Source: Dipteris shenzhenensis
Lineage: Eukaryota
Reading direction: 5' to 3' (one strand)
Length of the DNA: 64,000 bases
Assembly: GCA_047967505.1 (NCBI GenBank)
Contig: CM106538.1
The notes under the pieces were generated by a model. It was not told the origin of the DNA. It saw only the letters and a program-made list of their open reading frames with translations, and made no database searches. This document shows, in pieces, positions 1 through 45,563 of the stretch. A program made the translations under genes and the position numbers. Each line of letters starts with the position of its first letter. Position 1 is the stretch's first letter.

Positions 1-1164
1 CATTCTGCATCCAACAAGGATCCCAAACCAGCCTGTGTGCACCGCAGACGAGTTCTCTCTCAATTCTATTTTGTGCAGAACTGAGCTAAACCGTGAGACG
101 TAATCTTAAAAAATAGGACAACAGATACAGATCCCCTTGCACATGAAAGTACAACCTCATTTTCAATGACCTCCTTCCTTGTAATATGTATACCACTCTT
201 AAATCTCATTCAAATCTTTTAGGAGATAAGCCTTGTACTTCGCATATCTGTATAGAAGTTATACCAGAACATAGCCTGCTATTCGAAAGTTCCCTCCTCC
301 ATGTTTCTTTGTGGAGGCTTCAAATACATCGATGGGTCCCAAAAGGTGGGGATTAGTAATCATAACTTTCTTTCATCCTATCCCATATATATACCTTTAA
401 AAGACTCGAATAGATTCAATCTTATAAATCACAATTTTTTTATAGAACAAGCAAAAGAAAGCGACTTTAGACAAACTTAGGAGTAAATGAGAAAAATAAA
501 AATAAGGATAACTTAGTCAGCAAAGCTACGCTTATGTTTACATCAGTACCCAAGCAAAAACTGCCATCTGGGTTTTGAAAGATTCCGGAATCCCTTGGGT
601 AAAATCCTATCCCATATGCCTAGACCCTAGGGACTTCATAAAATCAATCCTTCAGGGCCAGAAATCGTTAGATAACCAAAGGACAACAGAGACTTACAAA
701 GCTCTTCGAGATAACAGAAGCAAGAACATGTGCAAGATAAGAAGGCCCATAAATGCATCAAGCCTCTCTGCGATTGATTGTACATGCATTTAGAGATGCT
801 ACCGAAGCGCTAGCGTAAGACTCGAGGCAGGTACAACCTTCTTTAAGAATCCAACGCCAATAATGCGCAGCTATTGCGTAGAGATAAAATTGCAGCCCAT
901 AAATTATGCTTAAACATAGCGAGGGTAAGAGCTCTACAGTCATGACCGTCGAAAATAAGACGGAGCGAATTGGGAAAGACGTGGGGCAAGACCCTGTAAC
1001 AAAGGTCAAGTCGGAGTGAGGTAGTGTAGAAGAGCACTATGCGACCTCTGCAGAAGGATGAATGAGCGAGCGAGACTGTCCTTCGTTATACTTTTCATAT
1101 AGATGCACCTTTCCTAAATTTAGAGTAACAAATAACACTGGTAAAGGAGAGAGAATAGGCGCAC

Positions 1165-1484
1165 CTTGAAGCCAGGTAACACAGCGCTGCATTGGAGCAA
1201 TGACGAGTGGAAAGCTCGCGCATATTCCCACAGCTCCGATCGACTACCAATTTGATAATATAATCAATTTTCTTCTCGAAAGACGGCTGCCACCACATGG
1301 AAGTCTCCTCTCTCTTCCGGAAGGAATCTTCCATATTCACGCACTCCCAACAAGCAGAATCGGCGGACGCTCTTCTCCAAGTCTTGCAAACCAGCGGCAC
1401 GGAGAGGTAGAGGTCCTCGAAGCCCACTCTCTTGAAAATCTCCACAAGGGCTTCGTGGGTGAGGTCGGCCCAGGAAGCATCCAT
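1165..1484 (-). CDS. F-box protein, SKIP1-like (first coding exon; remaining exons not identified, probably left of the window)
   Basis: ATG at 1484; F-box WADLTHEALVEIFKRV...VPLVCKTWRRA then WWQPSFEKKIDYIIKLVVDRSCGNMRELSTRHCSNAALCYLASR, closely resembling the Arabidopsis SKIP1 N-terminus as I recall it; donor AAG|GTGCGC at 1165/1164. Confidence 0.85.
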
Positions 1485-1868
1485 ACCCACAAAGCGGGAA
1501 GGCTCTCTTTGGGATCGGAATGAGCAAGAGAAACTTGGAAATTGAATACGATGGACAGATGAAGAGCTTGAGACAATTTGCGAGGTTACTGACAGCTACA
1601 ATTTGCCGTTTTTTTCAGCCATATCCAGTAACAGAAGGTCGGAGCCAACGGAGAGAGCTTACAAATTACTGTCTTTGCAGTGTAGAGCAGCTGTCAACGT
1701 GCAATTCCAAAAGTCCAAAGGGAAAATTCCATCACCCACAAACTTCCAACAGAAGAACAACCAAAACAAAAATTCCCGCGAGATCCGATGCTCTTATCGA
1801 TGTTTAGAATGCTTTACAATACTCCCTATGCATCTCTTTCTTCTTCTCTGCCCAACAATTCTCTTTCA

Positions 1869-1920: not shown

Positions 1921-2247
1921 TCCACTGATTCTCTCTCTCTCTTCTTCTTACCCAACGACTTCCTCTTCTTCTTCACAATTCTCCCTGCCCACCATAATCT
2001 CTCTGTGGTGCGCTTTATCACATTCACGTATCTCTTGGGAGCGCCTAGTAGGGCAGGCTCTGATGTGGATAAGACTTGGATTTATCATCATCAGATTTTT
2101 TACCGATGAACGTGAACGAACGTGTGGAGCCGTAGAACATCAAAAGATGTAGATTAGAAGACATATATACACAATACAAATCACTATCAAGATCATATAG
2201 TAAAGGATATAATATCAAATAATGGGAGGGATGTGTCCCTTCCGTGG

Positions 2248-2323
2248 GTGCCAAGAATATTGACACCAAAAAAATATTAATGCTAAGAATATTAGCGCAT
2301 AGAATATTAGTGCCGAGAATAAG
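2248..2323 (+). repeat. Five degenerate ~15-bp tandem units (core AGAATATTA)
   Basis: gtgccaagaatattg / acaccaaaaaaatatta / atgctaagaatatta / gcgcatagaatatta / gtgccgagaataag. Confidence 0.75.
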
Positions 2324-2390
2324 TCTTGCGAATGGATAAAATACTGGCATATTACCTGAATGTCAGTAGTCGAAATCGTAGTCGAACGTC

Positions 2391-5300
2391 GATAAAATCA
2401 CTACAAGTCATGCGCTACTATGTGATGAAGTTAACATTGATTCAAAATGGACCATCAAGATTAAAGATATCGCAAGAAGTGAGTCCAACGAGGAATGTGT
2501 TGAAATGCTTGGGATTGATAACAATAAGAAACCTATCGTTTATATTGTTATGGAAGAGAAGTTCTCTTTGAAAGCTGTTACTCCACCCGCTGTAGCGGAA
2601 TAATTAAAATAAATCAAAGAGGAAGGGAAGGTTAGTTACTATTTATAAGTATTTTCTAATTTTCTTTGTTTATGTAATTTCTTTGGAATACTATGAGAGA
2701 TTCAATTTTGTTTTGTGTGTCCAAGATCTTATTTATCACTTGACAAATCAAATTGTGGAGGTTGATGAAATAATCGAGGAGATGGAGGTATCAACTTCCA
2801 ATAGTGATTCTGACGAGCATATAGAGGAGGGTTATGAAGAAGATACCATAACATCACCAATCAAACCAAGAGGTTCTTCAAAGTCAAAAGGAAAGGAATC
2901 TTCTCGTGTTGAAGCTGAAAAATTTGGCTCTAATACACAAGGATTAAGAACTCCCACGGGTTCACATGGATTGAGAGCACCTTCTCTTTTAGGCCATCAT
3001 GGATTGAGTGCACCCCCAAGTGGGCATGGTTTGAGCGCCCCCCCAAGTAGGCATGGTTTGAGCACACCGCTCCCAAAAAAATGACCTCTATTGGCTGCAA
3101 GTGCATTTCCTCTTGAGTCTTATGAGGATGTTGTCGAGGAGACTCCATCTATTGCACAAGGGAAAAAATAGAGTAAACCGGGATCAGAGGCTCCAAGGAG
3201 AGTATAGCCATTGGATATCATTGAAATCCCAACCAATGGTGAGCTACAAGTACCAGGAGTTAACATTGGAGATGGCACCTCAGATACACAACAAAATAGA
3301 GTCTGAGCAAAGGTACAACGAGATAACCTTGTGGATCGATAGACTTTCTTCTTGCACATTGATCATGTTATCAGACCTCCTATTGATCCTAGGACTGGCC
3401 TTCGGCCATTTGAGGTGCGAAAAATACATCCTTTTCATATTGAGAATTTGAAGTCACGAATGAAGGACAATCTGCATGCACAAGTTGTGAACTACATTGT
3501 GCTTGTGGATCCAAAAGATTGTCCAGACAAGACATCTATTGATTGTCGGAAAGCAAATGATTATAACTACTTTGTTCTTGGAGTCCCATTCAGCAGAGGC
3601 AAAAAGGTAGTTGAATATTGAGTTTCCGCGCAACTCTCATTACAAGACATGTAATTGTACAGTTTATGCTGGTTTGACTGATTCGAAGGCAAACTTTCTA
3701 GCTTTTGATCACAATAATGACAATGAGTATAGAAAGTCCATGTCTTGGATAGAACAGGTTCATTTCTATCACAATGAGTTCATTATGAAACTCAATGAGG
3801 ATCGTTCTTTGATCACTCCAAAGTTTCGCTTGTCTTTGTTGAATGAGACTCGGATTTCTACAACAATTAAAGATCCGTCAAGGCCAAGTGGCAGCTTCAG
3901 ATCATGGGACGGGATGTTTCAAATTGCATTTCATAGTGGAGAAGTTTGGGTTTTGATAAATGCAATTTTTTCCAAGTGGGAGAATTTTGAAATCAAAGGG
4001 CAGAAAAAACTCATACCTAAAGGAGTCGAGAAAGAAACCTAGACGTTGAAGGCATTACTTGGAGAAGTTCGAGCCACAGCATGGAAGAGCATGCAGGGAA
4101 TTAAAGATGAGATTCTAATTAAGTCTGTGCTTGGCAGAGTGGTGTCTAGGGATCTCTCTTTGGATGAAATGGGCAATGAATTTGATGAGTAATTAAACTT
4201 CTCTCTTTTGCATCATCTCTCTTTGATTTTACATTAATCTCTTTACAATAATGTTTCAATAGACTTTGTTTCAACTGTAAAAGTGAGAAGAATTTTACAT
4301 GTGTTTTCAATGCAAGCATAAAATATACATGAGAATGCAAGAAGCAATGATCTGGCAATTGAACATGCCGGATTGGAATGCTGTTCGGGAGGAGTATCCA
4401 GAGAGTAGAAGGATGGAGAGCTTGGCTCCATATTTCAATGTATTCAAAAGCATGGTATGTCAAATTTGGTATACATATTCTAATGGAATTTTTTCTTTTG
4501 AATTGTAGATTTGAATGTTTAAAATATTGAATTGTTATTTTGACAATAACCTTCAGAAAAGAGGTAAGAAGGGATCTGAGAGTAGTATGATGCCTGCAAG
4601 CTTTAAGCAATTGATTGACTGGGCTGCAAAAGAAAAAGAGCGTCGAACTCGACAACAATCTCTCACTCTTAGTGATGACATGTTAGAGTTTGACAAGGGG
4701 GAAAACCATCCACCAAACTTTTATCGTGTGCTCAACGGAGATTGCAATGAATTGTCGAAGATAGTTCCAAAGTATGAGTACACGTCAGTCATTGTAGACA
4801 TACCATACGGATTTAATATTCTCGGATCCACCTTTGATGAGGTCCCTTACAAAGCAAAGGAACTAATGAGTCTTCTTGACCAGTTCATGTCAATTACGTC
4901 GGCAACGCTTTGGTGTGTCATAACTTTTCATTCAGACTTGCAGTCTGGGGCAGTGATGAGTGTCATCAATGATAAATGTGCTGGACGTGACCACCTTTAT
5001 TGGTGAGTGCAGCAATAAAATGCAAAGATTTTTTGGGGTCAATTATTATTATTATAATTGTATTTTCTTTTGATAAATTTAAAACTTATTTTTATTGCAT
5101 GTCATAGGATGAAACCCAATGTGAGACAAATGAAAGGACATTGATTCACATCTGCTATAGAAAACATTTTAGTTGGGTATTGGTCTGTGGATGGAAAAAA
5201 ATATATTGGTCACATCAATTTTTCCTCATCTACTCCATTTACCCCTGATCATTTCATTATTCCAGATGTGACGAAGAAGCTCATGCATGTGACCATGGAT

Positions 5301-5768
5301 AAGAATGGGGAGATAGTAATTCCTTATCAAAAACCACAACTCCTAATTAATCAGCTCATAGATCTATTTTCAAATGAGCATGAGTGGGTGCTCAATCTAT
5401 TTGCTAGTTCAGGCACAGTCACAACATGTGCCTTAAAAAAGGGTCGAAATGTAATTGCAGTTGAAAAAGATCCTATTCAATGTGATTACATAAAGAAGAG
5501 AGTGATTGCTATTCATCACTTGCCTGATGAGCATAAGGAGCTTGGTTTGAAAGGTGGGAAGTTCGATGCAGATTTAGTGGTAGCCTCGTCACGGGAACCC
5601 CAACCTCCTGAGATATTGAAACCCGTTTTTACGGAGGCAGGCGAGCTAGCTGATACATGGGAGAAGGAGGTTGTGAAAGAGAAAGTGATTGAGAAACCCA
5701 TACAAGAAACCCAGACTAGGGAGGGTGATGAAGATGAGGTAGATGACACATATGAGAGAATTGAATAG
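2391..5768 (+). pseudogene. Intron-containing ParB/Srx-like domain + beta-class N6-adenine/N4-cytosine DNA methyltransferase fusion, inactivated
   Basis: Reassembled exons ~2391-2630, 2761-4188, 4316-4454, 4557-5002, 5108-5768; introns start GT and end AG except 4189-4315 (ends CAA). Motifs: VLNGDC, VIVDIPY (4797-4808), LYW|MKPN, ENILVG, PYQKPQLLINQLIDLFS, WVLNLFASSGTVTTCALKKGRNVIAVEKD; ParB-like FVLG(G)SHSAEA across a frameshift at ~3583. Ten in-frame stops; true start not located. Confidence 0.85.
2938..3075 (+). repeat. ~27-bp coding tandem repeat (HGLSAPPSG-like, 5 copies) in the low-complexity N-terminal part of the methyltransferase gene
   Basis: QGLRTPTGS HGLRAPSLLGH HGLSAPPSG HGLSAPPSR HGLSTPLP in ORF 2683..3084. 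Confidence 0.85.
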
Positions 5769-6085
5769 ACTCTAGTTATGGATTTGTATTGCTAGTTTTT
5801 TGTATTTGAATGGTTTCAATAGACAAGTGTTCTTAAGACATATTAGACTCCTTATGCTTTGAATGTTTTGAACATTTAGTTGTTCCCATTAATTTGTTGT
5901 TAGGGATGGTTATGAAGATAATGTAGATGACACATATGGGAGAATTGAGTAGACTCCAATTATGGAATTATATTGACAATTTTGTGATTTTGAATTGTTT
6001 CAATAGACAAGTGTTCTTGAGACATTTGAGAATCCATATGCGTTGAATGTTTTGAAGGAGGCATTTACTTTTTCCCATTAATTTG
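5717..6085 (+). repeat. Diverged tandem duplication (~184 bp x2) spanning the methyltransferase stop codon and 3' UTR
   Basis: 5717-5900 vs 5901-6085 share gtagatgacacatatg.gagaattga.tagactc, ttcaatagacaagtgttctt, cccattaatttg. Confidence 0.85.
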
Positions 6086-8698
6086 ATGATATTTTTTTAC
6101 TCTTTCAGTATTTTATGTGATAGTACAAAGTTTAACTTCAGAATTTTGATAAGGTTATGTTACTACATGCAGGATTGAAAGTTGTATCATGTAGTTTTTC
6201 TATTGAAAATAAAAGGTCAAAGGAAGGAAAAAAATTACAAACTTCTTGATTTTTCTAAATACATTGACATTGTCCTCTGTAGTCGAGGTCCTTCATAATT
6301 TGCGAGCATTATGTACCAAAATTGATAGGATTTTAAGTGTTTTGAAAAATTCACTACGCAAAATATGACCTTTTTTTGAAAAAGTTATAATTTTAATGAA
6401 TTTTTGAGGGAATTTTAAAACGGGTACCAATGTTACATCCCTGAATTAGATGTTACACTGTTCACACATCCTATAATCACAACTTGTGATTTTCAAAAAG
6501 CGAGCTAGCTTTGGAAGAATCCTTTTGGGTCAAATGGAAGCCCTCTTTTAGGCCTTTAAATCAATCTAAAATCAAGGGCTCAAACTTCTACACATGGCTC
6601 AATGAGGACTCAAGAAAACCAAACTTCCCCCTAGGCTACCTGTTGTAAAAAGCTCAACTTGAAGAAGCTTACTTTCTGATGAAGGAATACATGATGAATG
6701 AACTAAGGCATGAAGAGCCCATCATGTGGCAGTGACAACATAGCTACTACTAGCTCAATTGCAATCACGTCTCCAGTAAACTCATAAAACATCAATAAAC
6801 AAGTAGCACCTCCTCCTTCGTAGATTGCAAATTGGGATTCTTCAACTATGTGCAAAATTTCACAAGCAATTCAAAATTGTCACCCGGTGCACATCCCTTT
6901 GCTTTGCAAGACACTATCTTTCACAAGAGAGGAGTGAATAAAACTTGCTATGTGGCGAAGCTTCAAAGAGAGGCATCGTTGAGAAGAACGTGATACATAG
7001 CCATAACTTATGAGAAACACTTGATGTGAGACTAAAAGAACTACCTTTATGTCTCATCAATTATCGTCAAGCTAGCTAAAGGAGATGAACCAGGGTTTAA
7101 ACCTTTTGTTTTATTATTCTTCCTTTCTATCACAGACTATGATAGAGTTTCACAAGGCCATGAAACTCTCCTCTGTGCTCTTAAATTGCCTTGAAGTAGG
7201 TAATGGCTTCATCAGATATCACTTTCTTGAGATAAGCAAGGGCATCTCTACATGAAATGGGAAAATAGGACCCCCTACTTGCTTCCTTCTTTGCAAAGAG
7301 TACCTTTTTAGGATTGATTGCCATTGCAAATGCAAGAAAAGGGGTGGGGTGAGGAGATTGAATGGACTTTTTTCTCCACCAACAATGAGACAAAATGTGA
7401 TTCCTCTTTTGTAAAGAAGAAGAAGAAGATGAAGAAAAGAATTAGGACAATTCCATCATGGATGGTTCTGCAAGGGCTTGGAATCAACTTGTTGGTTTTC
7501 GTTTATATTGTACAACAAAATACCTATTGTCATAGGCATGAGTATGTTTACAAAAAGGCACATAGTGGGTCTAGAAGAGAAATGATGATAATTGAACATT
7601 GGAGAATGTTTCCTATGCTTGGTATTGTTGATATGGACACAGGGCAATCTTCTCTGACATAGCTACTTTCGTAAAAACAATCAAACGGATGCTCAAATTG
7701 ATACCATTTATGTTTTCCCTTAAGAATATCAAAGCCCCTCCCAAGTACTAACATGACAATAAAGGATAAATAATGTAAACAAGGACTCATGTTGACACAC
7801 TCAATAGGGCTTGCCTATGGAGATTCTCAAACTTTCCCCCGAAGTAAATGCTACCGTTTCTTGACCACACTCTTTGTTTTATGATGATTCTTTCATATCT
7901 CCGAGTTGTTGAAGACAGAAGGGAACGTCTCCCCTTTTTTTCTAGCTTTGCTACTTCCCATTCAACGGCTTTTGTTTTTGAAAATGCTGAATATATATTA
8001 CAAAAAGGGGTGGTCAACCCCTTTTCGTAATATATTGACATTGCTACTTCCCATTTAATTGCATTGTTGTGCTCTTAGGTTTAAGAGGAGCTCCTCGCGC
8101 CAGCCAGTGGCGTTGGGGAGGATATATTCACATCCCCGTGGGTGCAGAATGCTGAACGATGGAGTTTTCTTGGCAGTGGACTGCTACGCTAGACGCTTGG
8201 ATTTCTGGAATTCCAGGCCAGCATTTGGCTGCTGGACTGGTTCAACCTGTAAAACGGGGCATTTATTGTTGCAAGTCTTCATCTTTGGCGGCGGAGAAAG
8301 GCATCTCCAACGTGGTGGAGACCTGCAAAGCGAGATCTGCAAAGCAGGTTCCACCCGAAGTAGCCTGGAGGATCTGTCCAAAATATCTAGCAGCCGACAT
8401 CGGGGAACGCAAATAGAAGGTAAGTTTCGCCTCTTGAATCGGTGCCCTCCCTAGCTTCATCTCCGACGCGGGGAGGCCCTCTTACATTAGACCCTTCGAT
8501 CTTGATCTGCCAGCCAATCAAAAGATGGCAGCTTTCATGCAGAGCTCCCTTCAAGCAATCAGACCTCGATTTCCAACACCTTCCGTCGCTTATTAAATGC
8601 ATGACGCTTCTTCACCATTTCAGAGTGTGAACAAATTTGCCTTATGGCACAAAAGGCGCAGTAGCTGCTCGTGTGGACTAAATAAATGGAAGCGGTTG

Positions 8699-8766
8699 CA
8701 TGATATATGAATTGCCTGACGAAACTCGTCCACATGATATATGAATTGCCTGACGAAACTCGTCCA
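8699..8766. repeat. Perfect 34-bp tandem duplication
   Basis: catgatatatgaattgcctgacgaaactcgtcca x2. Confidence 0.95.
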
Positions 8767-9726
8767 CGCTCTAGGTTTCAGCAAGGCCTCACGGTTTCAT
8801 CTTGGTAGGTTCTCAAGTTGGCTGCAGGTCCTAATACTGCCCACTCGGCATGTGGTGTCGAAGTTCGCCAATGCTGTAGACAGCAGCGTGGAGGCACTAG
8901 ATTTTGCAGAGTAATCGATATGGTCTCCATGCAGAACACGTCCCCATCGAGCCGAACTTGAGTCTGAACGTCCGGCGCCAACCCATCCATCCCCTTGAAT
9001 GAGCGGGAATTGAGCTTAGTCCCCGTCAACAGGTTGGAAACTTCTCCATGGGGAGATTGGAATGCGCAAAATGTATCGAACTTCGCTTCATGGGGCCTGC
9101 TTTAGTATGTTTGTTAGCGCTGATTTTGCGTTGCAGAGCTGGGTGCGCCGGGTTTGCATCGCCAAACGCATAAATTATGCTGAGAGCGAGAGAGTGTTGA
9201 TGAGAGTGGAGGATCGGTACCAGGAACTCGGATGCAAAAGCTTTTTGCTTGGTATGTTACGGTGCGATTTTCAGTTCAAGTCGTGTGTCATTTTCTTTCT
9301 TCGATAGAAATTATTTTCGCGTGCGAAACAAGTCTGCAATGCCGCCATACATACGTACATAGGCATCAAGATCCTTTTCTTGATTTTGTGAGTGGGGTGA
9401 GGGACCTCCCACCCTTTGTTATTGGCTCCTAGCACGGATTGCCAAAAACAACTAAGATAAAAGGAGCGTTAAAGAGGTCCGTGCCTTTACAATGTCAGCA
9501 GCTCCCAATAAAGAGGCTGAAAAAAGGCAAGATATGCTTATTTGTCAAGCTCATAGAAAAAGTTTATACAGGTAACACTTGGGGGAGTGCCAACCTACTT
9601 TTTGGCCGGCCCTCAAGATGCAATTTTGGGAAAGCAGAAATTAGGCATTTCTTGAATTTTTTGGAAGTGCATTTTTCCTATTGGCTCTTCTTCATTGGAC
9701 TTCAATGTAGACTTTAAAGTGGTTGA

Positions 9727-9730
<4 letters not shown>

Positions 9731-9773
<43 letters not shown>

Positions 9774-9857
9774 CCCTTCTTTATCTCCTCAAGTCTTCTT
9801 ATGGAGGATCTCGACCTTTTCTCCCTTACGCAAGATCTCCACCTTTTCTCCCACACC

Positions 9858-9903
<46 letters not shown>
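9731..9903. repeat. Two (CT)n microsatellites
   Basis: 9731-9769 and 9859-9903. Confidence 0.95.
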
Positions 9904-9907
<4 letters not shown>

Positions 9908-10940
9908 CCCCTTTATCTCCTCTAGTCTTCCTCCACACCATTTTCAGTGGATTCCTTTTTGCTTACTTCTTTTATCTTGGGCAGGCCTTATGAATGATTG
10001 AATATCATTCACCTTGTTTGCAAGAGGGGTAGGGCTTAGTGATTGTTTGAGAAAAATCACGATTTTTTCTCATTTTTGCATGTCTTGGTTTTTGTGTGCT
10101 CGGGGTTGGTACACCTGTTTCCATCCTTTTTTAGCGGAGAGAATGTCTCTTGGTTGTTTGCGTGGAATTCCCTCCCCTCCTCCTTCAGCGGAGAGAATGT
10201 CTCTCGCCTGTTTCCGTGGTACAACTCTTGGGCAGACAACGTCTCCCATGTTAGTGTTCAAGTTTGTGAGGTTTGTTGGTTTTTAGTTGAGCTCGCAGCA
10301 TTTGTCGCTTGAAGATCATTGGGTTTGTGTTAATGTTGTAGCACATTATTTCTGGCCAATCTAATTTTGCTTGCTCCCTCAATCTCTTGTAGTCGTTAGA
10401 TCCTTGCATACTATCTAGAATTCACATTACAAAAGGAAAATTTTGACGTACCATGATACATACGCTTTGTGTGGTGAGTATCGTCATTCGTGGGCTACTT
10501 GCCATAGTCTTGCCATCAATGTCCATTGTGCCCATTCCTGCCTCATTGATAGGCTAATGCTCGAGTTTTGTCTGTTTTTTACCTTTGGCAATTGCACCAC
10601 CCCCAGTTTGTGTTGTGACCAGATCTTTTCCTCCCAATTGAAAACCATTAACAAATATTGGAATCTTAAACACATGTTTTGCGAAGTGCGCCTTTATTTC
10701 CATCTCTTGTCATAATTAGAACTATTATAAGATAGTATGTCGACTTCCCAACTGGAATCGAAAGAAGTGTACTACTAGAGTGTAGGAGTAAAGTGCCGCT
10801 GCCCGTAGACCTATTGCCACTGTTGGTAAGAAAAATAATTTCTCAAAAATATGATATTATTGTACATACAACATCTGAGTAACAGATATGCGCAGAAGAG
10901 GAGATTGGAATTTGGGCAGTCGGGAATACTCATAAGAAAA

Positions 10941-11104
10941 AGAACTTCTCGAATAAATAGAATGTTATTGTATGTTCAATATCACAGAATAACATATGTT
11001 CATCAATATGCACAGAAGAGGAGAACTTCTCAAACAAATTGGATACTGTTGTGTGTTCAATATCACAAAATAACATACATTCATCAATATGTGCAGAAGA
11101 GGAG
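10941..11104. repeat. ~81-bp diverged tandem repeat (2 copies plus a partial upstream copy)
   Basis: agaacttctc...gttcaatatcaca...ttcatcaatatg..cagaagaggag repeated. Confidence 0.75.
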
Positions 11105-14100
11105 CTTGGAATCTAGGCACTTGAGATTGGGAGTAGGGACTTGTGTTCCGGTCATTGCATATTTTAACGAGTAGTTCAAACTTCAAAAGAAAAATCTAAA
11201 GAATGGTTGAATGTGTGGTACAATGGTAGCAAAGCTAGCAGTGCGTGAATCATAATCCATCGAGATTCATGATTTGACAATATATAGATGATAGATGATT
11301 TCAACCAAGAACTGGTAATGACAAGCACATTAGCTTAAAGACAAGTGTCAAGAATGGAGGGAGCTATTGTGTAGCAATTAGATATCATTCGCCTGAAACC
11401 AATCAAATTTACATATCTCTATATTGGCTTTACGCTCCGAGTCTAAGCTCGCAAAGACAGGTGGCCACTAGCATGGCAAAATCTCACTGTTGACTATCAA
11501 GAGAGAGAAAGAGAAAGAAAGAGAGATAGAGAGATCATGATTCATCAAATGATGTTCTTTGGGTTTTTGCTTTGTTTGTGTCTCCCAATTTGCCTACTGG
11601 AAAAGTGCACAAACAAAATCATTTGGCAATGATACCGTATACAATAGAGGTCAACCTAAGATGAAAGGATCACGACGAATTGCAATGGCCAAACAAATAA
11701 ATGAGCTGAGCTACCGAACTGATCTTCTGTTAATAAGTCTTCAAGCTCCATGTAAAGCATACATATAGGGAGATGAAGTGATTTCGTTCTGATAAGGTAG
11801 TCTTTGATATTTATAAGGTCCAAGTCAGTTCATCTCCCCTCCACCTGTGCGGCAAGGTGAAAATAGCTCTATTGTTGTTCATATGATGTAGTTTCTTGCA
11901 TTATGTTAAGAGCGAGAAAACGTGAAATACATAGGTCTCTCTGAGGCTTCTCTATCCACTATTCATCACCCCTTCCAATTCCATGCTTAACTAAGGATTT
12001 GGAAAAGTTTGCGTTCATACAAATTCTATGGATAGCATTTTAAGTGGCATGGCAAAGCCGGTATAGGGGGGCCATATCAAGGAGGAAGGCTTTTCAGAAG
12101 AATGCAATTAAAGGGACCCTTACCTTGTCCGCCATGGAAACTGCAAAAAATTGAGTAGGGAAGACGATGGAGAGACGAACTTGTTTGTGAGTTTTGTGGG
12201 GCATCTCCATGGGCCACTTTAGCTTACGTTCATTGCATTGGGACGGCCCTTGTGGATTGAAAAGAGGAAGTACAAGGGTTATGTGGGAGGGCAGGAATGT
12301 TCAAGATTTGAATTGGGAGGGAGAGATTTTGAACGGTCAGGATCCCCAAATGAATGTTCAAGGGTGGAGTGATGCTTAAATTCAAACTCGACCAAATTGT
12401 GCCTTTCTCGTGGATGGCCATGATTTCAACTTTCCCTCATAAGGCTTACCTTGTTGTTCATGTCTGCTTATCCAATTGTAAACTATGGGTCAGCACCCAA
12501 CAACTTATTAAAGCTCAAGAAATGAGCTAATCAATATACCCCCGCGGGGTGCACCATCGACCGACCATGATCTTCTGTGAAAGGTTTGAGTGGGAGCGTA
12601 CTTGCTGGGAAGCAATTTGAATTTTGGATTGGGGGGAGCCAAGCCACATAATTTGACAAAAATTAACATTCCATTGGTTGAGGGAGGATAAGTTGTGAAG
12701 AGTAAATGAAATGTGAAAAGGAAAATGATTTACCTAATTAGGAAAGTGAAATAAGTGGGAGTTGAACATTGTGAAGGGGGGAGGTGAGAGTAAAGGGGGG
12801 GAGGCTATGCCTTTGTATTGGTGATGTGACATCATTGGATGAGACTTATGGTATTAATGAATATATGGTTGTTTAAGCTCATGCATGTGAGCATAAAGGT
12901 CTTGGGGTCAATTCCCAAGCACAAACTAGGACTCCTTTCACACTTTTGAAAGGTTGATTGTGCGTGAGATCGATGGTTGGGAGACTTTCAAGATTACAGG
13001 ATGGGAGGGGTTTGATTGCACTGCAAAAGATCGATGGTTGGGATTGCACCATCCTCCCAAAAACTTGGGGGGGGGCATATTAACATGGGAGTTAATCTAG
13101 ATCCTTGAGTTAATTAAAAAGGATAGGCTAGCTTTTAAGTAGCATTAATGAGATTGACCCTAGAAAACTAATTGGATGGAGTTAGAGCACACTCACTATA
13201 AATCTACACAATAAGAACTGGTTACTCCATTTAATTAGTTAGAGGAGGAGAGGGGGGTGACAGGAAGGGGGAGGAGGGAGCAATTCACCTAAGGGGTGGA
13301 GGGGAGGTGGAGTAATTAGGTGAAAGATAAAAGGAGTGTTGAATTGAAAGGATAGCACAAGAGTCAAAAAGGAGAAGATGAGAGGGTTGGAAAGGGGGGC
13401 ACTAGCCCATCCATGAGGGAGGGGAGGTGGTTTATGTGGGGGAGTGGACATTCTTGTCATGCATTTAATAGACCCCTTCCAATCCCTCAAGTACTAACAT
13501 TTCCAAATTGTACTTTGAATTTTAAAACAAGTTGCCAAAGCCACTATGGCCCTTCTTTTAATGAAGCTTTTAATGAGAAGAAGAGTAGATGGATATCCAC
13601 AAGATATAAGGAAGAGTAGAAGGATAGCAAGAAGACTAAACTAACTTAAGGCCCTTTGGACCAAAAAACCACCCCCTTCCCATAGTCCTTTAGCAAGGCA
13701 AAAAATTCACCATTCCTATTCCAACTTTTCACTATAGGCAACCTAGCCCCAATTTTCCGTTCTTTGAGCTCTTAGAAGCCATTTGGCATGTTTCCATTAT
13801 TTTGTTTTTTCTTTTCCAATTAAGGTTTTGTTCTGATTTGCTTTTGCTAAAATTTTTACTTTCTTTTTTAGTTACCATAGCTGTTCATGCCAATCACATA
13901 GGCCCCAATGCAAGTTGTGGTGATTGCCTGGCAAGCAAGGGGATGGGGATGGGGCTCACAAAAACTGGACATGTTCAAGAGAAGAAGGTCACAATGTCAG
14001 GCCCTCATTCTCTCTATCAAGGACCTATGTGAGGTGTGCAATACTACTTTGCTAAGAGGGGAGGTTGAAACAAAAAATATTGCTAATAAATCTATGGGCA

Positions 14101-14429
14101 TGTAGATTGATGGCTTCAAGGAACCCAGAAAGGAAGCCAATGATAGTAGCAAAGTGGCATTTTGAGTTCGGTTAATCCATTGAAATAGTAACTAGAAGTT
14201 TCCGGACTGCTGTCAAAAGTGTGTAGGTACCTATTTTTAGTAGCAAAGAACAGTGAAACCTTACAGAATTTGGACCTGCACTAAAATGGAAAGTTGTAGA
14301 CCTATCGATTGGCTACAATTTTTTAGTTGATAGTTTTTGTATTTGAGGTAACGTGCGGAAGTTATTGACTATGCAATACAACAAAAAGTTGCAGAAATCT
14401 GCTATTGGAAACCATGGCTCTATTGGAGA

Positions 14430-14810
14430 GAAGGATCAAAATAATTATGCCATTTGGAAGGTTCGGATGGAAAATTTCCTGGCTGGAAAAGGATATTGGG
14501 ATTTGGTTACAGGTGATGAGAAAGAGCCTAATTTGCCAGAAAGAAATGCTACTGTAGAACAAGTTAAGAATCATAAAGCTTGGCTGGAAAGAGCACGGAG
14601 GGTACTTCATTGGTTTTCAATATCTATTTCAGATGCCATGGTTATGCAAATTCTGAACTACAAGTGCCAGGAAAATTCAACTGAAGAAAAAGTTCAACAA
14701 TATGTGAAGACGAGGTAGAACAATACAAGAGTACGTGACTGAAATCAAAACCATAGCTGATCAATTAGCTTCTATTGATGCTTCTATGGATGATGATGAC
14801 ATGGTTGAAG
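14430..14810 (+). mobile_element. Ty1/copia gag remnant
   Basis: NNYAIWKVRMENFLAGKGYWDLVTGDEKEP; downstream frame YVTEIKTIADQLASIDASMDDDDMVE. Confidence 0.8.
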
Positions 14811-16039
14811 AGCAAGCAAACCAACAAGAAGCTATCTTTTCTACTTTGTAGTATCAGAGAGACATGAAGTGGTGCCAACCAAACTCAAAACAAAGAAGCA
14901 TCGTAGGTGGGAAATAGATATAATGAAGAAATTAGAGGCTTTGCATCTATCAAAGCAATATAAGTCTTGGAATATTGAGTTTTAAGGTTGCTAGTTTGGA
15001 GCCATTTATTCAAGGATTCGAGAGGTACATGAAGATAATGATCTAAAAATGACTCTTGGTCACCTACAGTAGTGCTTGAATGAATGAGAGTTGAGAGATT
15101 TAAATCAAAGAGCTTGAGTCAAGGAAGCATCACGAACAACAACTTTAGAGTTTAGGAAGACAAAGGACAAACCAATGCAATTGCTCTAAGGCAAGAGAAG
15201 GCTCCAAAATATTGAAGCTTAGTTGCAAAGATCAAGGCCGATAAAGGTTTGGTGTAATAGCTAGCCCACAATTAGTCCAAGAGAAGATAGATGTGATCAA
15301 TTTAAATGCAAAGGTTTATTAAGGCCCCAAACATCGTGGGTGAAGCCAAAGTGATAGTCATTGAAGGCCCAAGATGATGTGGCCAATGATAGTTTTTAGT
15401 GGAAGGGAACTATTTACACTCACAATGATGGTCTCTCTAAATAGTTCATGATGATGCCAAAGACTTTGCAATTGAGTTGAACCGATTCCTCAGATGGCAA
15501 TAATGATGTTATTCCCTATTTAGAATTTGAGGTTGGAAGGAGGGTTTGATTAAATTAGATGCATAGTGAGCAAACAAGGCTTGGATTTGATTAAATCAGT
15601 GATTCACATAGTGAGCATTGTGTTGAAAGTAGACAAGGAAACAATGTCATCCTTGGCAAGTAACATGTTTGCCCTTGTCTCCTAATTTACATACTAGGTT
15701 AACATGTTTGTAGGATCCCTACTATTGTGTACCTAGGTTATTGTTCCCTCAGCTTGTTGGCAAAGTGTGTTTATTTGTTAGGTCTACTTGTTCATGTCTT
15801 TAATGCTCATCTTGTGGTTGTCACATGGTTTGTGCCATTGTTTTGGTGTTTGGGTACTTTGTGAAATTCTGAATGGCATTTCTTATTTTGTATTTGTTCA
15901 TTATATGCCTTCTTTTTTGGCGTGTCTAGCTATTCTATCTATTTATGCTAGACAAGTGTCTTTTTGTTATGTCAACTATGATACTAATATTACAGCATAG
16001 GGCAAAAATGAACAGGGGAAAAAAAAACTTTACTTGATG

Positions 16040-16825
16040 TGTTTGAAGAGCATGAAGTCTCATTTTGATTTACTTGATGGTTTACCCCCTAACAGAGAAG
16101 TAGATCATAAAATAGATATATTTCTTGGATCTACCCTTGTTTATAAACTCCCTTAGTCAAATAGAGGAATGTGAGGTAGAAATACACCTGGTTGAATATC
16201 TTAGAAGACCTCAAATTTAACCAAGTAGCCCACTATGGTCTTCGCTAGTTTTGGTGGTAAAGAAAAAGGATGGTACTATGCGCTTATGCATAGATTACAA
16301 GCTTATTTTGGTGATATTTCTGCAAAGAGGATGACCAATAACTTTTGAAAGTAAGAAGTTAGAGTGCACTTTTATGGAATTACTCGACATAGGAGAAGAA
16401 ACTATATGCTATAGTCTATGTATTAAGAAATGGAGGCAGTGTTTCTATAGTGCTAGATTTGAGATCATATTTGGTCAAGAAGGTATCAAATTGATTTGCA
16501 ATCAACCTCAAAACTTCAATGAAGAAAAGTTAGATGGGCTAAATTGATGCAAGAATTTGATATTCAATTGACATTCTATATCACAAAGGCAAATTTGATA
16601 TATACCCAATTCAGCTAAATGCCAATGGTTAATGAATTGAATAATACTCAATTCCAAAGTCACTTTGTACAGTCCCTAAAAGGAAAATCTGAGCATGATC
16701 CTCACCTTAGGGAAAGCAATTATTGAGAGGGATTCCATTGGTCAAGGAGCTTCCATTGAGTAATGGTGCCATACTACAGGTTGGTCATAAAGGACTCAAG
16801 TGGAAAAAATCTAATATTGATGGCT
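16040..16825 (+). mobile_element. Highly degraded Ty3/gypsy RT-RNase H remnant
   Basis: LPPNREVDHKIDI, LVVKKKDGTMRLCIDY, PITFESKKL and ELYAIVY-like segments in broken frames. Confidence 0.75.
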
Positions 16826-18699
16826 TGGTTGAGAATCAGTCAGGTAGAATGCTTAAATGCCTACGGACTGACAATGGTGGAGAGTATCTCTCTCATGACT
16901 TTCAGCATTTTTGTGATACACGTGGGATTAAGAGGGAGCTCACATCCCCTCGTACTTGAGAGCAAAATCTAGTTGTAGAAAAGATGAACCGTACCATTCA
17001 AGAAAGGTTGCAATGCATGCTTTCCAATGCAAGTCTTTCTGGTGTTTTTTTGGGCTGAGGCAATGAAGACTGCAGTGCATGTGATCAATAGATCACCTAG
17101 TAAGAGTTTGGATAGTGGTATTCCTGAAGAGGCATGGAGTGGCAAGAAGCCCTCTTACTCTCATTTGCATATATTTAGGTGTGAGGCATATGCACATGTG
17201 CCAAAAGAGCTTCGAAAGAAGCTAGATCCTAAGTCTAGGAAATGCATCTTTCTGGGTTATGGTGAAAGTGGAGAGATGGGCTATCGTCTCTGGGATCCAG
17301 AAGCAAAGAAGATCATACGCAGCCTTGATGTAGTCTTCAATGAGAAGAAGATGCATAAGGCACCCATGAGGGATGTGGAAATGAGGAGAATCACTTTCCA
17401 GGATGTGAATCCACCTGCATATGTTGATAGACAGCAAGCTGTCCATGCACCAAATGTGCAAGAAATGGTACCACCAAGTACTCCCACAGGTATTCAATCA
17501 AGGGTAGATGATGGATCATCTATTGGTGGAAATGATGAGCCAAATGTGGCTGATATGCAGGTGGGATAGCAAGCTGAAATGCCCTTGAGAAGATCATCTA
17601 GAGTGTCTAGATCGCTTGATAGGTTTGTTCCAGGGGTAGACTATGTGATGCTTACTGATTGTGGGGAGCCTTCTTGCTACAGAGAGGCTATGATGCGCGA
17701 GGATCAATGCAAGTGGGAGTATGCTATGCAATCAGAAATGAGTTCACTTATGAAGAATAAGACTTGGGACTTGGTTTCTTTGCCACATGGAAAGAAAGCA
17801 TTGCCATGTAAATGGGTCTACAAAATGAAGGTCATAGGTGATGATGTGCCTAGGTACAAGGCCCGTTTGGTCGCTAAAGGGTTCAAGCAAGAGAAGGGTG
17901 TGGACTTTGATGAGATATTCTCTCCGGTTGTGAAGATGACCACACTTAGATGCATTCTTGGACTAGTGGCATCAGAGGATATGGAGCTTATGCAGATGGA
18001 TGTCAAGACAGCTTTCATGCATGATGGGGATTTGCATGAGGAAATTTACATGGTGCAACCGGAAGGCTTTGAAGAAAAGGGCAAAGAGCATTTAGTTTGC
18101 AAGCTGAAGAAGAGTCTCTATGGTCTTAAGCAAGCGCCTAGAGAATGGTATCAGAAAGGCTGAGTATGTTGCAGCCACAGAGGGATGCAAGGAGGCTATA
18201 TGGCTTGGTCGACTAGTGGGAGATTTGGGGATTCATACAGGTTTACCAACATTGCATAGTGATTCCATGAGTGCTATTCAGCTAGCACGGAATCCAGTCT
18301 TTCATGCAAAGACCAAACACATTGAGGTCAGGCACCATTTCATCAGGGAGGTACTTGAGGACAAGCGCATAGAGCTTGTCAAGGTTCATACAGATGATAA
18401 CCCTGCAGATATGTTGACGAAGAGTCTACCTAGTCAGCGGTTTGAGTATTGTCGTGTATTGATGGGCATTGGATAGTATGCTCACTGGTTGTTCTCCCTT
18501 AAAGGCACATTGTCCTTTAAGTGGGAGGTTGTGGGGGTTAAAGGTCACTGTGTCTTTACCCCGATTATGTACAATACTCAAACACATATATAAATGAATG
18601 AAAAAGAAGATTAGGGTGTTCTACACCCACCAAAACATGTGTGGCTCTCTATTTCTCTCTCTCCCTCTTCCGTTCTTGCTTCCGTTGAGAGCACTCTCA
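16826..18699 (+). mobile_element. Ty1/copia 3' half (integrase core, RT N-part, deletion, RNase H, PPT, 170-bp 3' LTR 18530-18699)
   Basis: LRTDNGGEY, KLDPKSRKCIFLGY, YKARLVAKGF, QMDVKTAF, LKKSLYGLKQAPR, HAKTKHIEVRHHFIRE, NPADMLTK; PPT aagtgggagg; LTR TG...CA followed by GTAGA. Confidence 0.92.
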
Positions 18700-45558: not shown

Positions 45559-45563
45559 TAGAC

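What the first reader, a model, noticed from the sequence alone, without database searches (positions are those of the whole stretch)
4557..5768. Bacterial/phage-type beta-class amino-DNA methyltransferase domain in a spliced plant gene
Seen: splicing out the GT-AG intron 5003-5107 joins two ORFs into VLNGDC...VIVDIPY...HLYW|MKPN...ENILVG...PYQKPQLLINQLIDLFSNEHEWVLNLFASSGTVTTCALKKGRNVIAVEKD. Established: catalytic motif IV ((D/N/S)PP(Y/F)) before the HPTQKP-like segment and the SAM-binding DPFxGSGT motif defines beta-class N6-adenine/N4-cytosine methyltransferases (Pfam N6_N4_Mtase), unlike plant 5mC enzymes (MET1/CMT/DRM) or MT-A70; eukaryotic examples are rare (bdelloid N4CMT, Marchantia DN4MT1). 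Inference: a horizontally acquired enzyme that gained introns; D rather than S in motif IV leans toward 6mA, which would suggest an undescribed plant 6mA/4mC writer family.
Basis: partly seen in the sequence, partly recalled or inferred. Interest (0 to 1): 0.92.

Follow-up and report, generated by a model that had tools for sequence, protein, structure and literature searches.

The report
Dead copy of plant ParB-methyltransferase gene
The stretch is a broken, non-functional copy of a little-known plant gene family that joins a ParB-like DNA-binding half to a bacterial-type DNA amino-methyltransferase; the family is worth study, but this copy is a relic.

Summary
The domain is real. ORF 5145-5768 passes Pfam N6_N4_Mtase (38.2 bits, cut-off 26.7). 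The read-through aligns to CcrM from motif IV to motif I. The GT-AG intron 5003-5107 is supported by a 35-codon gap against the Ginkgo homologue.

The spliced frame is not open. The gene runs upstream to at least ~3300 and carries seven more in-frame stops and a 2-nt deletion near 3583. Motif I is degraded: NLFASSGT against a family D..xGxG. This copy is a pseudogene.

It belongs to an intron-bearing, multi-copy family. 20 of 30 clusters looked up carry organism names: Adiantum 9, Chara 5, Riccia 4, Ginkgo 2. Intact relatives fuse a ParB/Noc-like N-half (VIA Z 10.8-10.9) to a beta-class methyltransferase closest to CcrM, M.BceJIV and M1.HpyAVI. Motif IV is D-x-P-Y, not the TSPPY/SPPY of DN4MT1 and N4CMT.

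No paper on the family was found. Red-algal transposon accessory genes are the nearest precedent. A transposon link is plausible but unproven.

The parts
2745..3309 (+). Low-complexity acidic/Ser-Gly-His-rich N-terminal remnant in the reading frame of 2602, with in-frame stops at 3082-3084 TGA, 3169-3171 TAG, 3205-3207 TAG and 3304-3306 TGA
   Evidence: Frame translation and tblastn of Chara P0164 residues 81-196, which starts at about window 3241 and runs through the stops at 3304 and 3340. Stop codons checked. Assignment to the gene is by colinearity with acidic N-terminal regions of relatives, so it is inferred.
3310..3583 (+). First half of the ParB-like domain (...RPPIDPRTGLRPFEVRK...YNYFVLG), with in-frame TAG at 3340-3342. 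It ends at a 2-nt deletion (frameshift) near 3583.
   Evidence: tblastn: P0029 residues 95-192, P0164 81-196 and P0022 89-139. A related contig of run X1 has two extra bases behind 3583 that restore the family frame GG.HS.EA (table 4).
3584..4189 (+). Second half of the ParB-like domain plus the helical middle region, in the next frame. In-frame TAG at 3608-3610 (Q in Ginkgo) and TAG at 4040-4042.
   Evidence: tblastn of Ginkgo P0004 residues 143-348: E 3e-44, 42% identity. Also Adiantum P0022, Riccia P0072 and Chara P0164. Stops checked.
4190..4316 (+). Probable intron. The acceptor AG is at 4315-4316. No in-frame canonical donor remains.
   Evidence: Gap between HSPs against Ginkgo P0009 (EF..|HK.YM), with homology resuming exactly at 4317. 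Read from the sequence. The donor problem is my reading, so inferred.
4317..4454 (+). Exon (HKIYMRMQEAMIWQLNMPDWNAVREEYPES...FKSM), linker region conserved in the family
   Evidence: tblastn of P0009 from residue 133 and P0022 residues 296-344
4455..4556 (+). GT-AG intron, 102 nt, phase 0
   Evidence: ATG|GTATGT ... CTTCAG|AAA. Coincides with a gap against Ginkgo P0009 (FRNV|KTKKKG).
4557..5002 (+). Exon with the N-terminal half of the methyltransferase: VLNGDC at 4728-4745 and motif IV D-I-P-Y-G at 4797-4811
   Evidence: tblastn: P0004 from residue 353 and P0001 residues 192-313, E 5e-11. Aligned to CcrM. Coordinates.
5003..5107 (+).
   Evidence: TTG|GTGAGT ... CATAG|G. Three stops in frame. 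A 35-codon gap against Ginkgo P0004 at HLIW|HKPN.
5108..5768 (+). Last exon: (W)MKPN; premature TGA at 5142-5144; ENILVGYW at 5160-5183; PYQKP at 5322-5336; degraded motif I NLFASSGT at 5394-5417; acidic tail; TAG at 5766-5768
   Evidence: PF01555, 38.2 bits. tblastn: P0002 1e-37 and P0001 2e-28. Coordinates. Family motif statistics.
5717..6091 (+). Tandem duplication of the gene's 3' end and the start of its 3' flank: two units of about 185 nt, 85-87% alike
   Evidence: the repeat finder families D2 and D11

Best explanation
Window ~3300-5768 (+), probably starting nearer 2400-2750, is a decayed pseudogene. Its parent family is an intron-bearing streptophyte gene family. The intact proteins join a ParB/Noc-like N-terminal half (ParB/Srx-type domain plus helical DNA-binding region) to a C-terminal beta-class, SAM-dependent DNA amino-methyltransferase (PF01555).

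In intact relatives the likely mechanism is this. The ParB-like half binds DNA. The methyltransferase half flips out a base and moves a methyl group from SAM to an exocyclic amino group, more likely N6 of adenine than N4 of cytosine. That mechanism is inferred from fold and motifs and is not shown.

The copy in this window cannot do this. Its frame is broken by eight stop codons and a 2-nt deletion, and its SAM-binding loop has lost two consensus residues.

The family is ancient in the plant lineage, not a recent bacterial insert. It is multi-copy with species-specific bursts, so it is probably carried by, or derived from, a mobile element. That last step is inferred, at roughly even odds.
For: Domain identity:
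- PF01555 above its cut-off.
- phrog_67 at 2e-11 over both halves.
- CcrM aligned end to end.

Pseudogene status:
- TGA 5142-5144, TAG 3608-3610, TAG 4040-4042, TGA 3304-3306 and TAG 3340-3342 all lie inside alignments to relatives that continue on both sides.
- Three more stops lie at 3082, 3169 and 3205.
- The frame changes at about 3583, where a related contig carries two more bases.
- At motif I the window has N where 55 of 59 family rows have D, and S where 53 of 59 have G.

Family:
- 407 proteins at E <= 1e-3 and 59 at <= 1e-10. The best is Ginkgo Gb_37443, 6.9e-69, 47% identity.
- Named members are Adiantum 9, Chara 5, Riccia 4 and Ginkgo 2, out of 30 clusters looked up; 10 are unnamed.
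- In a quick tree of 68 rows, the 50 'YQKP' rows separate from the 18 'HPTQKP' bacterial-type rows (SH-aLRT 96). The Chara (100) and Adiantum (99) clades are species-specific. Window plus Ginkgo gets only 83.
- D-x-P-Y is kept in 50 of 64 family rows covering motif IV.

ParB half:
- The AF2 model of Chara P0164 matches Noc and ParB: Foldseek 3.0e-04 and 4.8e-04. VIA gives Z 10.8 with rmsd 2.4 over 99 residues for 7bm8_A, and Z 9.3 with rmsd 4.6 over 187 residues for 6t1f_B.
- The window holds the homologous segments.

Methyltransferase fold:
- The model of P0029 matches CcrM at 3.6e-12, then M.BceJIV and M1.HpyAVI.

Mobile-element lean:
- Near-identical Adiantum copies, with end branches of 0.025-0.1.
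- Many truncated gene models.
- In run X1, contigs over 2600-3575 have word depth 314-355, against 7.6-18 for those over the rest.
- Red-algal Plavaka, Mutator and Zisupton transposons carry a PF01555 gene and a ParB-like gene as accessory genes (passages).
Against: Against pseudogene status: the assembly could hold errors, and a single-base indel is a common error. Eight substitution-type stops are not a common error.

Against a mobile-element link:
- No terminal repeats around the gene. The only inverted pair is 30 nt at 70%.
- No second copy in the 64-kb window by blastn or tblastx.
- No transposase domain in six frames of 5801-14802. The only hit is a copia gag.
- The methyltransferase part is low-depth in run X1, and that tool warns that depth is not copy number.

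Against N6-adenine: specificity cannot be read from sequence (passage).

The ParB assignment rests on predicted models of relatives at moderate confidence (mean pLDDT 64.3). No sequence model of ParB reaches significance: searches found none, and DUF6551 reached only 0.019 in P0004.

The tree is a quick search with one support measure, on 68 of 164 proteins chosen by a motif filter.
Confidence: 0.88

Rival explanations
1. The gene is cargo or an accessory gene of a large DNA transposon, and this locus is a worn-down fragment of such an element. The ParB-like half would bind repeats of its own element, and the methyltransferase would mark that element's DNA. This refines the best explanation rather than excluding it.
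For: Multi-copy, species-specific expansions with very short branches in Adiantum. Many fragmentary models. The 5' part of the locus lies on contigs of 40-fold higher word depth in run X1. Precedent in red algae: PAG2 (PF01555 + SET) and PAG3 (ParB-like + 2OG oxygenase) sit on Plavaka, Mutator, Zisupton and Fanzor-encoding elements (passages). By language-model features, the N-half is nearest to fungal DUF3723 clusters (0.95; 177-188 of 256 features shared), and DUF3723 is a conserved Starship cargo gene (passages).
Against: No termini, target-site duplication, transposase or second copy in the window. Atlas scores are leads without alignment. Depth in contigs is not copy number. A host gene family with tandem or dispersed duplication could give the same tree.
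Confidence: 0.45
2. It is a working spliced gene for a plant 6mA/4mC writer. The stops would be bypassed by alternative splicing, read-through or editing.
For: Two well-formed GT-AG introns at conserved places. Motif IV D-I-P-Y, W.KPN and PYQKP are intact.
Against: TGA 5142-5144 sits between conserved blocks with no splice signals that would skip it without removing the conserved W.KPN...E..L.G block. Seven further stops and a frameshift lie upstream. Motif I is degraded. The related copy in run X1 has its own 196-nt deletion and 2-nt insertions.
Confidence: 0.03
3. It is bacterial or phage DNA: a contaminant in the assembly, or a very recent insertion.
For: The domain type is typical of bacteria and phages. 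ParB-methyltransferase fusions occur in prophage WO (passage).
Against: Spliceosomal-type introns. The best relatives are plant proteins at 35-47% identity. 301 phage records match, all below 60% identity; the 15 listed are at 24-29%, over the methyltransferase part only, and none covers 80% of the query. Four IMG/VR loci match at 22-36%. The gene lies between an F-box gene and plant transposons on one contig. G+C of 0.37-0.39 matches its surroundings.
Confidence: 0.01
4. The family methylates RNA or protein, not DNA.
For: Weak sub-threshold Pfam hits to TRM5/TYW2, Cons_hypoth95 and RrnaAD over the SAM-binding loop. Motif IV of the form N/D-[IL]-P-Y also occurs in rRNA adenine dimethylases (recalled, not tested).
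Against: Only PF01555 passes its cut-off. The best solved relatives by sequence profile and by fold are all DNA methyltransferases. The fusion partner has a DNA-binding ParB/Noc fold.
Confidence: 0.05

Closest known systems
Bacterial beta-class N6-adenine DNA methyltransferases CcrM, M.BceJIV, M1.HpyAVI, MboIIA, RsrI
   Same: Same Pfam family and fold. Same permuted order, motif IV before motif I. Shared blocks: G-D-C, D-x-P-Y-G, W.K.N and (H/N)P(T/Y)QKP...LD.F.GSGT. These are the best matches by sequence profile (5.9e-10 to 2.7e-05) and by fold (3.6e-12 onward).
   Different: Only 15-19% identity in the structural alignments. The first proline of motif IV is replaced by I, A, V, F or L. The family has YQKP instead of TQKP. 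It is eukaryotic, with introns, a ParB-like N-terminal half and an acidic tail. The window copy is broken.
ParB-like + DNA adenine methyltransferase fusions of prophages (Wolbachia phage WO met genes)
   Same: Same two-part architecture: an N-terminal ParB-like domain followed by an adenine-type methyltransferase (passage).
   Different: No close sequence relation was found. Phage matches to P0029 cover the methyltransferase part only, at 24-29% identity in the 15 records listed. I did not compare with the WO proteins directly.
Marchantia DN4MT1a/b (sperm-specific N4-cytosine methyltransferases)
   Same: A plant-encoded beta-class amino-methyltransferase of prokaryotic type. The family here is also present in a liverwort, Riccia.
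   Different: DN4MT1 carries TSPPY (passages of the 2021 preprint). All 64 family rows covering motif IV begin with D, and 50 of 64 read D-x-P-Y. No ParB-like half is mentioned for DN4MT1 in the passages I saw. The sequences were not at hand, so the relation is untested. The 2025 Cell version is not held.
Bdelloid rotifer N4CMT
   Same: A eukaryotic, intron-bearing PF01555 enzyme of bacterial origin. It matches by fold at 2.2e-09.
   Different: SPPY motif and a C-terminal chromodomain (passages). The sequence-profile match is only 0.0024. Its authors state it has no eukaryotic homologues.
Red-algal transposon accessory genes PAG2 and PAG3 (Plavaka, Mutator, Zisupton elements)
   Same: A PF01555 'N6-adenine' methylase and a ParB-like DNA-binding protein encoded by eukaryotic DNA transposons, with mostly degenerate copies (passages).
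   Different: There the two functions sit in two proteins, fused to SET and to a 2OG oxygenase. Here they sit in one protein, and neither SET nor an oxygenase was found by Pfam. No transposon context is shown here. No sequences were compared.
DUF3723 proteins of fungal Starship elements
   Same: Nearest named clusters to the N-half by language-model features: 0.95, with 177-188 of 256 features shared, for two family members. DUF3723 is conserved Starship cargo, described as related to DNA-binding segregation proteins (passage).
   Different: This is a lead only, with no alignment or E-value. No Pfam hit to PF12520 at E <= 0.1. The fungal proteins have no methyltransferase fusion that I know of.

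Membership tests
Pfam N6_N4_Mtase (PF01555), beta-class DNA amino-methyltransferases | Score at or above the curated gathering cut-off | tested here: met
   ORF 5145-5765: 38.2 bits against 26.7. Relatives: P0004 65.7, P0002 60, P0154 47.6 bits. ORF1 alone: no hit.
Pfam N6_N4_Mtase (PF01555), beta-class DNA amino-methyltransferases | Permuted order: catalytic motif IV lies N-terminal to SAM-binding motif I | tested here: met
   Motif IV at 4797-4811 and motif I at 5394-5417. One alignment to CcrM spans query residues 57-331. phrog_67 spans residues 55-321.
Pfam N6_N4_Mtase (PF01555), beta-class DNA amino-methyltransferases | Motif IV (D/N/S)-P-P-(Y/F) | tested here: inconclusive
   The window has D-I-P-Y: D, the second P and Y are kept, and the first P is replaced. 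29 of 64 family rows share D-I-P-Y, and 50 of 64 read D-x-P-Y. Whether this form is active is untested.
Pfam N6_N4_Mtase (PF01555), beta-class DNA amino-methyltransferases | Motif I, D/E..F-x-G-x-G SAM-binding loop | tested here: not met
   The window reads N-L-F-A-S-S-G-T. The family keeps D in 55 of 59 rows, the first G in 53 of 59 and the second G in 55 of 59.
Pfam N6_N4_Mtase (PF01555), beta-class DNA amino-methyltransferases | Uninterrupted coding frame | tested here: not met
   TGA at 5142-5144 within the domain. Seven more stops and a frameshift lie upstream in the same gene.
Pfam N6_N4_Mtase (PF01555), beta-class DNA amino-methyltransferases | Methyl transfer to N6-adenine or N4-cytosine of DNA | not testable with these tools
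   Needs an enzyme assay of an intact natural member.
ParB/Srx-like N-terminal domain proteins (ParB, Noc, KorB) | ParB/Srx fold followed by a helical DNA-binding domain | tested here: met
   Tested on the relative P0164, not on the window copy. Foldseek: Noc 3.0e-04, ParB 4.8e-04. VIA: Z 10.9, 10.8 (rmsd 2.4 over 99 residues) and 9.3 (rmsd 4.6 over 187 of 190). The window holds the homologous segments 3310-4189, broken.
ParB/Srx-like N-terminal domain proteins (ParB, Noc, KorB) | Match to the sequence model ParB_N (PF02195) | tested here: not met
   No hit at E <= 1 for the window ORFs or at E <= 0.1 for 8 relatives. DUF6551 reached only 0.019 in P0004. PHROGs found none.
ParB/Srx-like N-terminal domain proteins (ParB, Noc, KorB) | Nucleotide (CTP)-binding arginine motif and binding to a specific DNA site | not tested
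   No residue-level structural alignment was available. The family block GG.HS.EA at the expected place is my reading.
Marchantia DN4MT1 | TSPPY catalytic motif | tested here: not met
   Motif as given in the preprint. The window has D-I-P-Y. All 64 family rows covering motif IV begin with D.
Bdelloid N4CMT | SPPY motif plus a C-terminal chromodomain | tested here: not met
   Features as given in the papers. No chromodomain appears in the Pfam scans of the window ORFs or of 8 relatives.
Red-algal PAG2/PAG3 transposon accessory genes | PF01555 fused to SET; ParB-like fused to a 2OG oxygenase; location inside a DNA transposon | tested here: inconclusive
   No SET or oxygenase domain in 8 relatives. 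No transposon features around the window copy. The locus is old, and other copies could not be examined.
MT-A70 (METTL3/IME4-type) | Match to PF05063 | tested here: not met
   Only P0018 gives a sub-threshold 0.032, 14.6 bits against 23.9. METTL3 appears only far down the fold list.

The most novel reading that the evidence does not exclude
Intact members of this family are active DNA 6mA (or 4mC) writers that are carried by, or were domesticated from, large DNA transposons. The ParB-like half would load on repeats of the element and so direct methylation to it, as a self-marking or anti-silencing device. Every organism name recovered so far (Chara, Riccia, Adiantum, Ginkgo) belongs to a lineage with swimming sperm, as does Marchantia with DN4MT1. 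A second, independent amino-methylation system tied to male gametogenesis in such plants is therefore not excluded.
Probability: 0.15. Interest if true: 0.8.

Novelty: new variant of a known kind. Interest (0 to 1): 0.4.

Why it matters
The locus itself does nothing, so it should not be counted as a plant 6mA/4mC writer.

It does flag a family that public records name only 'hypothetical protein' or 'DNA methylase N-4/N-6 domain-containing protein'. That family spans charophyte algae, a liverwort, a fern and Ginkgo. It mostly keeps its catalytic motifs. It fuses a ParB-like DNA-binding half to a bacterial-type amino-methyltransferase.

Only two eukaryotic enzymes of this Pfam family have been characterised in the papers I read: N4CMT and DN4MT1. 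If intact members are active, they would be a third and architecturally different case. They could bear on disputed reports of 6mA and 4mC in plants, or on how large transposons handle host silencing.

Tried and rejected
- **Whole genome.** None is held for this window, so copy number, other copies and element termini could not be examined.
- **Sequencing runs.** One DNA run was listed, holding a 0.08 share of the sampled words. No RNA holder was listed, so nothing can be said on expression.
- **Metagenome loci.** Single protein P0029 found no relative.
- **Viral contigs with P0004.** 4 loci at 22-36% identity over the C-terminal motifs only, one from a giant-virus bin. No close viral relative.
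- **Phage records with P0029.** 301 records matched, all below 60% identity; the 15 listed are at 24-29%, and none covers 80% of the query.
- **Terminal repeats around the gene.** Only a 30-nt, 70% inverted pair at 2336-2365 / 6087-6116. I judged it chance.
- **Self-comparison.** Comparing 2100-6200 with the rest of the window by blastn and tblastx gave nothing.
- **Six-frame Pfam scan of 5801-14802.** Only a copia gag near 14430; no transposase.
- **Sequence models for the N-half.** Pfam, NCBIfam and PHROGs gave nothing significant.
- **First structure model.** In the whole-P0029 model the ParB-like part had pLDDT 36-53 and was unusable. The second model, P0164, was used instead.
- **Alignment A1.** It misplaced the N-terminus of P0002 and was not used further.
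- **Literature.** The 2025 Cell paper on DN4MT1 is not held, and supplements are closed. I therefore did not see DN4MT1 sequences, its phylogeny or any list of plant homologues, which could bear on whether this family has already been noted.
- **Rejected readings.** Organellar-type RNA editing and selenocysteine were considered for the TGA. I rejected both because the locus is nuclear, with transposon-rich flanks, and seven other stops exist.


Full report
**What is in the sequence**

On the + strand there are two ORFs in the same frame, 4515..5006 and 5145..5768. The first holds VLNGDC (4728-4745) and D-I-P-Y-G (4797-4811). The second holds ENILVGYW, PYQKP (5322-5336) and NLFASSGT (5394-5417).

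Between them lies a 105-nt AT-rich stretch with G|GTGAGT and CATAG|G ends and three in-frame stops. The joined frame then runs into TGA at 5142-5144 (MKPNVRQMKGH*FTS).

**Is it an N6_N4 methyltransferase?**

Yes.
- ORF2 hits PF01555 at 2e-09, 38.2 bits against a cut-off of 26.7.
- Its best NCBIfam models are CcrM and another adenine methyltransferase, far below their equivalog cut-offs.
- ORF1 alone gives nothing in Pfam. The read-through with X at stops (P0003) aligns to CcrM in one piece over residues 57-331. That alignment pairs RVLNGDC...VDIPYG with IIHGDC...ADPPYN, and KPN...FTSAIENILVGYW with NP...FANAHETLIWASK.
- phrog_67 'DNA methyltransferase' covers residues 55-321 at 2e-11.

The order, motif IV before motif I, is that of the beta class.

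**The gene is longer and is broken**

The best relative, Ginkgo Gb_37443 (P0004, 670 aa; 6.9e-69), aligns to the window in two blocks. Residues 353-656 match 4722-5750, and residues 143-348 match 3584-4183 at E 3e-44. Chara, Adiantum and Riccia relatives extend the match back to about 3240-3310, in another frame.

Within these alignments the window carries these lesions:
- TGA at 3304-3306 and TAG at 3340-3342.
- A frame change near 3583.
- TAG at 3608-3610, where Ginkgo has Q.
- TAG at 4040-4042.
- TGA at 5142-5144, where relatives have R or K.

Three more stops (3082, 3169, 3205) lie in the low-complexity N-terminal part. A related contig of the one public DNA run found (X1) has two extra bases behind 3583, which restores the family block GG.HS.EA. 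That contig has lesions of its own: +2 at 3616, a 46-nt skip at 3726, +2 at 4946 and a 196-nt skip from 5119 to 5316.

At motif I the window has N and S where 55 of 59 and 53 of 59 family rows keep D and G. This is a pseudogene.

**Introns**

Two GT-AG introns are supported both by splice signals and by gaps against Ginkgo proteins. They are 4455-4556 (102 nt, phase 0) and 5003-5107 (105 nt, phase 2). A third gap, 4190-4316, has a good acceptor but no in-frame donor, which is my reading. So the family is a true intron-bearing eukaryotic gene family, not a contaminant.

**The family**

The exhaustive search found 407 proteins at E <= 1e-3, 59 at <= 1e-10 and 2 at <= 1e-30. Of 30 clusters looked up, 20 carry organism names and 10 are unnamed. 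The named ones are Adiantum nelumboides 9, Chara braunii 5, Riccia sorocarpa 4 and Ginkgo biloba 2. Where sources name them at all, they are 'hypothetical protein' or 'DNA methylase N-4/N-6 domain-containing protein'.

Family members read [NC]PYQKP where bacterial-type hits read HPTQKP, and D-[IAVFL]-P-Y where those read D-[PL]-P-Y. All 64 family rows covering motif IV begin with D, and 50 keep D-x-P-Y. The exceptions include D-I-P-H in both Ginkgo proteins.

I built a quick tree on 68 rows. These were the proteins, out of the 164 held, that had the QKP block with at least 40 residues before it and 60 after it; the rest were left out. The tree splits 50 family rows from 18 bacterial-type rows (SH-aLRT 96). 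It gives species-specific Chara (100) and Adiantum (99) clades with very short branches inside Adiantum. It places the window next to Ginkgo with weak support (83).

Phage and IMG/VR relatives are remote. The 15 phage records listed are at 24-29% identity and the four IMG/VR loci at 22-36%, over the methyltransferase part only.

**The N-terminal half**

Sixteen of the 161 proteins then held share an N-terminal region of about 230 residues with P0029. The window has this region at 3310-4189. Sequence models do not name it.

An AlphaFold2 model of the Chara protein P0164 was made from 13 sequences. Its mean pLDDT is 64.3, with ten-residue blocks over residues 100-330 ranging from 55 to 91. It matches Noc, ParB, KorB and sulfiredoxin:
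- Foldseek: 3.0e-04 and 4.8e-04 for the top two.
- VIA: Z 10.9 and 10.8 (rmsd 2.4 Å over 99 residues of C. crescentus ParB), and Z 9.3 over 187 of 190 residues of a ParB that includes its DNA-binding domain.

Language-model features point the same way, as a lead only: DUF3723 at 0.95, ParB_N at 0.92-0.93 and DUF6551 at 0.90.

The methyltransferase part of a second model (P0029) matches CcrM (3.6e-12), M.BceJIV, M1.HpyAVI, MboIIA and, lower down, N4CMT. The sequence profile gives the same ranking.

**How intact members probably work (inferred)**

A ParB-like half binds DNA. The beta-class half methylates an exocyclic amino group using SAM. The D-type motif IV and the ranking of solved relatives lean towards N6-adenine. 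The N4CMT authors note that specificity in this domain changed repeatedly (passage), so this needs an assay.

**Host gene or mobile-element gene?**

For a mobile link:
- Multi-copy, species-specific bursts and many truncated models.
- In run X1, contigs of word depth 314-355 cover 2600-3575, against 7.6-18 over the rest. The tool warns that depth is not copy number.
- The red-algal precedent. Plavaka, Mutator and Zisupton elements carry a PF01555 gene (PAG2, with SET) and a ParB-like gene (PAG3, with a 2OG oxygenase), and most copies are degenerate (passages).
- DUF3723, the nearest named look-alike of the N-half, is conserved cargo of fungal Starships (passages).

Against:
- No termini and no second copy in the window.
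- No transposase in six frames of 5801-14802.

I put this at about even odds.

**Comparison with what is known**

Characterised eukaryotic PF01555 enzymes in the papers I read are bdelloid N4CMT and Marchantia DN4MT1. N4CMT has SPPY plus a chromodomain and is stated to have no eukaryotic homologues (passages). DN4MT1 has TSPPY (passages of the 2021 preprint). A 2025 paper cites these two as independent bacterial acquisitions (passage).

ParB-like plus adenine methyltransferase fusions are noted in prophage WO (passage). The plant family differs from all of these in motif IV, in its fusion partner or in its host.

Searches for 'N6_N4_Mtase'+fern, ParB+N6_N4_Mtase+eukaryot, 4mC+Marchantia+methyltransferase+HGT, ParB+methyltransferase+transposon+Chara braunii, and PF01555+plant found no description of it. 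The Cell 2025 DN4MT1 paper and all supplements were out of reach.

**Verdict**

The locus is an ordinary dead gene copy. The family behind it is a new variant of known kinds and deserves a proper survey and one enzyme assay.

Noticed in passing
window 2600-3575: In the single public DNA run found (X1), contigs about 93% like this stretch have word depth 314-355. Contigs over 3670-5800 have 7.6-18. The high-depth contig departs from the window at 3575, close to the frameshift. The 5' part of the gene may therefore be shared with a high-copy repeat in that organism. The tool warns that depth is not copy number.
   Followed up: partly
window 5717-6091: The last ~50 nt of the coding region and the start of the 3' flank are tandemly duplicated: two units of about 185 nt, 85-87% alike.
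   Followed up: no
window 1095-1595 (-): An F-box domain ORF (PF00646, 3.4e-06) lies head-to-head with the pseudogene, about 0.8-1.2 kb from its presumed start.
   Followed up: partly
window 37306-40466 (-) and 45557-47913 (+): Two decayed Helitron-like coding remnants in opposite orientation. Helitron_like_N hits 39180-39962, and similar helicase-like ORFs appear on both strands.
   Followed up: partly
window 14347-18163 (+) and 52656-55890 (-): Two copia-type retrotransposon bodies, with gag, rve, SH3_retrovirus and RVT_2 domains.
   Followed up: partly
window 58760-60064 (+) and 61010-62034 (+): A G+C-rich (0.57) proline-rich ORF with a weak DUF4283 hit (0.00058). It is followed by ORFs that look like a LINE endonuclease by eye but have no Pfam hit.
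   Followed up: no
window 9717-9934: Two long (CT)n microsatellite blocks about 120 nt apart.
   Followed up: no
P0008 (Chara braunii, 1825 aa): One gene model holds the ParB-like region twice (residues 68-295 and 1044-1264) together with methyltransferase matches. This is either two tandem family genes merged in annotation or a true duplication.
   Followed up: no
P0004 and P0009 (Ginkgo biloba): Both Ginkgo models read D-I-P-H in motif IV, so the catalytic tyrosine is replaced. In total 5 of the 64 family rows covering the motif read D-I-P-H, and 3 read D-L-P-R. Some lineages may therefore keep inactive or decaying copies.
   Followed up: partly
P0029 residues 100-320 and P0072 residues 135-300: By language-model features the N-half is closest to unnamed eukaryotic clusters (Porifera, Mollusca, Cnidaria; 0.96) and to fungal DUF3723 (0.95). 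This hints at a wider eukaryotic, perhaps transposon-borne, ParB-like family.
   Followed up: partly
window 2390-2600 (+): A short open stretch (…WTIKIKDIARSESNEECVEMLGIDNNKKPIVYIVMEEKFSLKAV…) lies just upstream. It loosely resembles N-terminal parts of Adiantum and Ginkgo members by eye. The X1 high-depth contig also continues upstream of 2602. It may be an earlier exon of the same gene.
   Followed up: no
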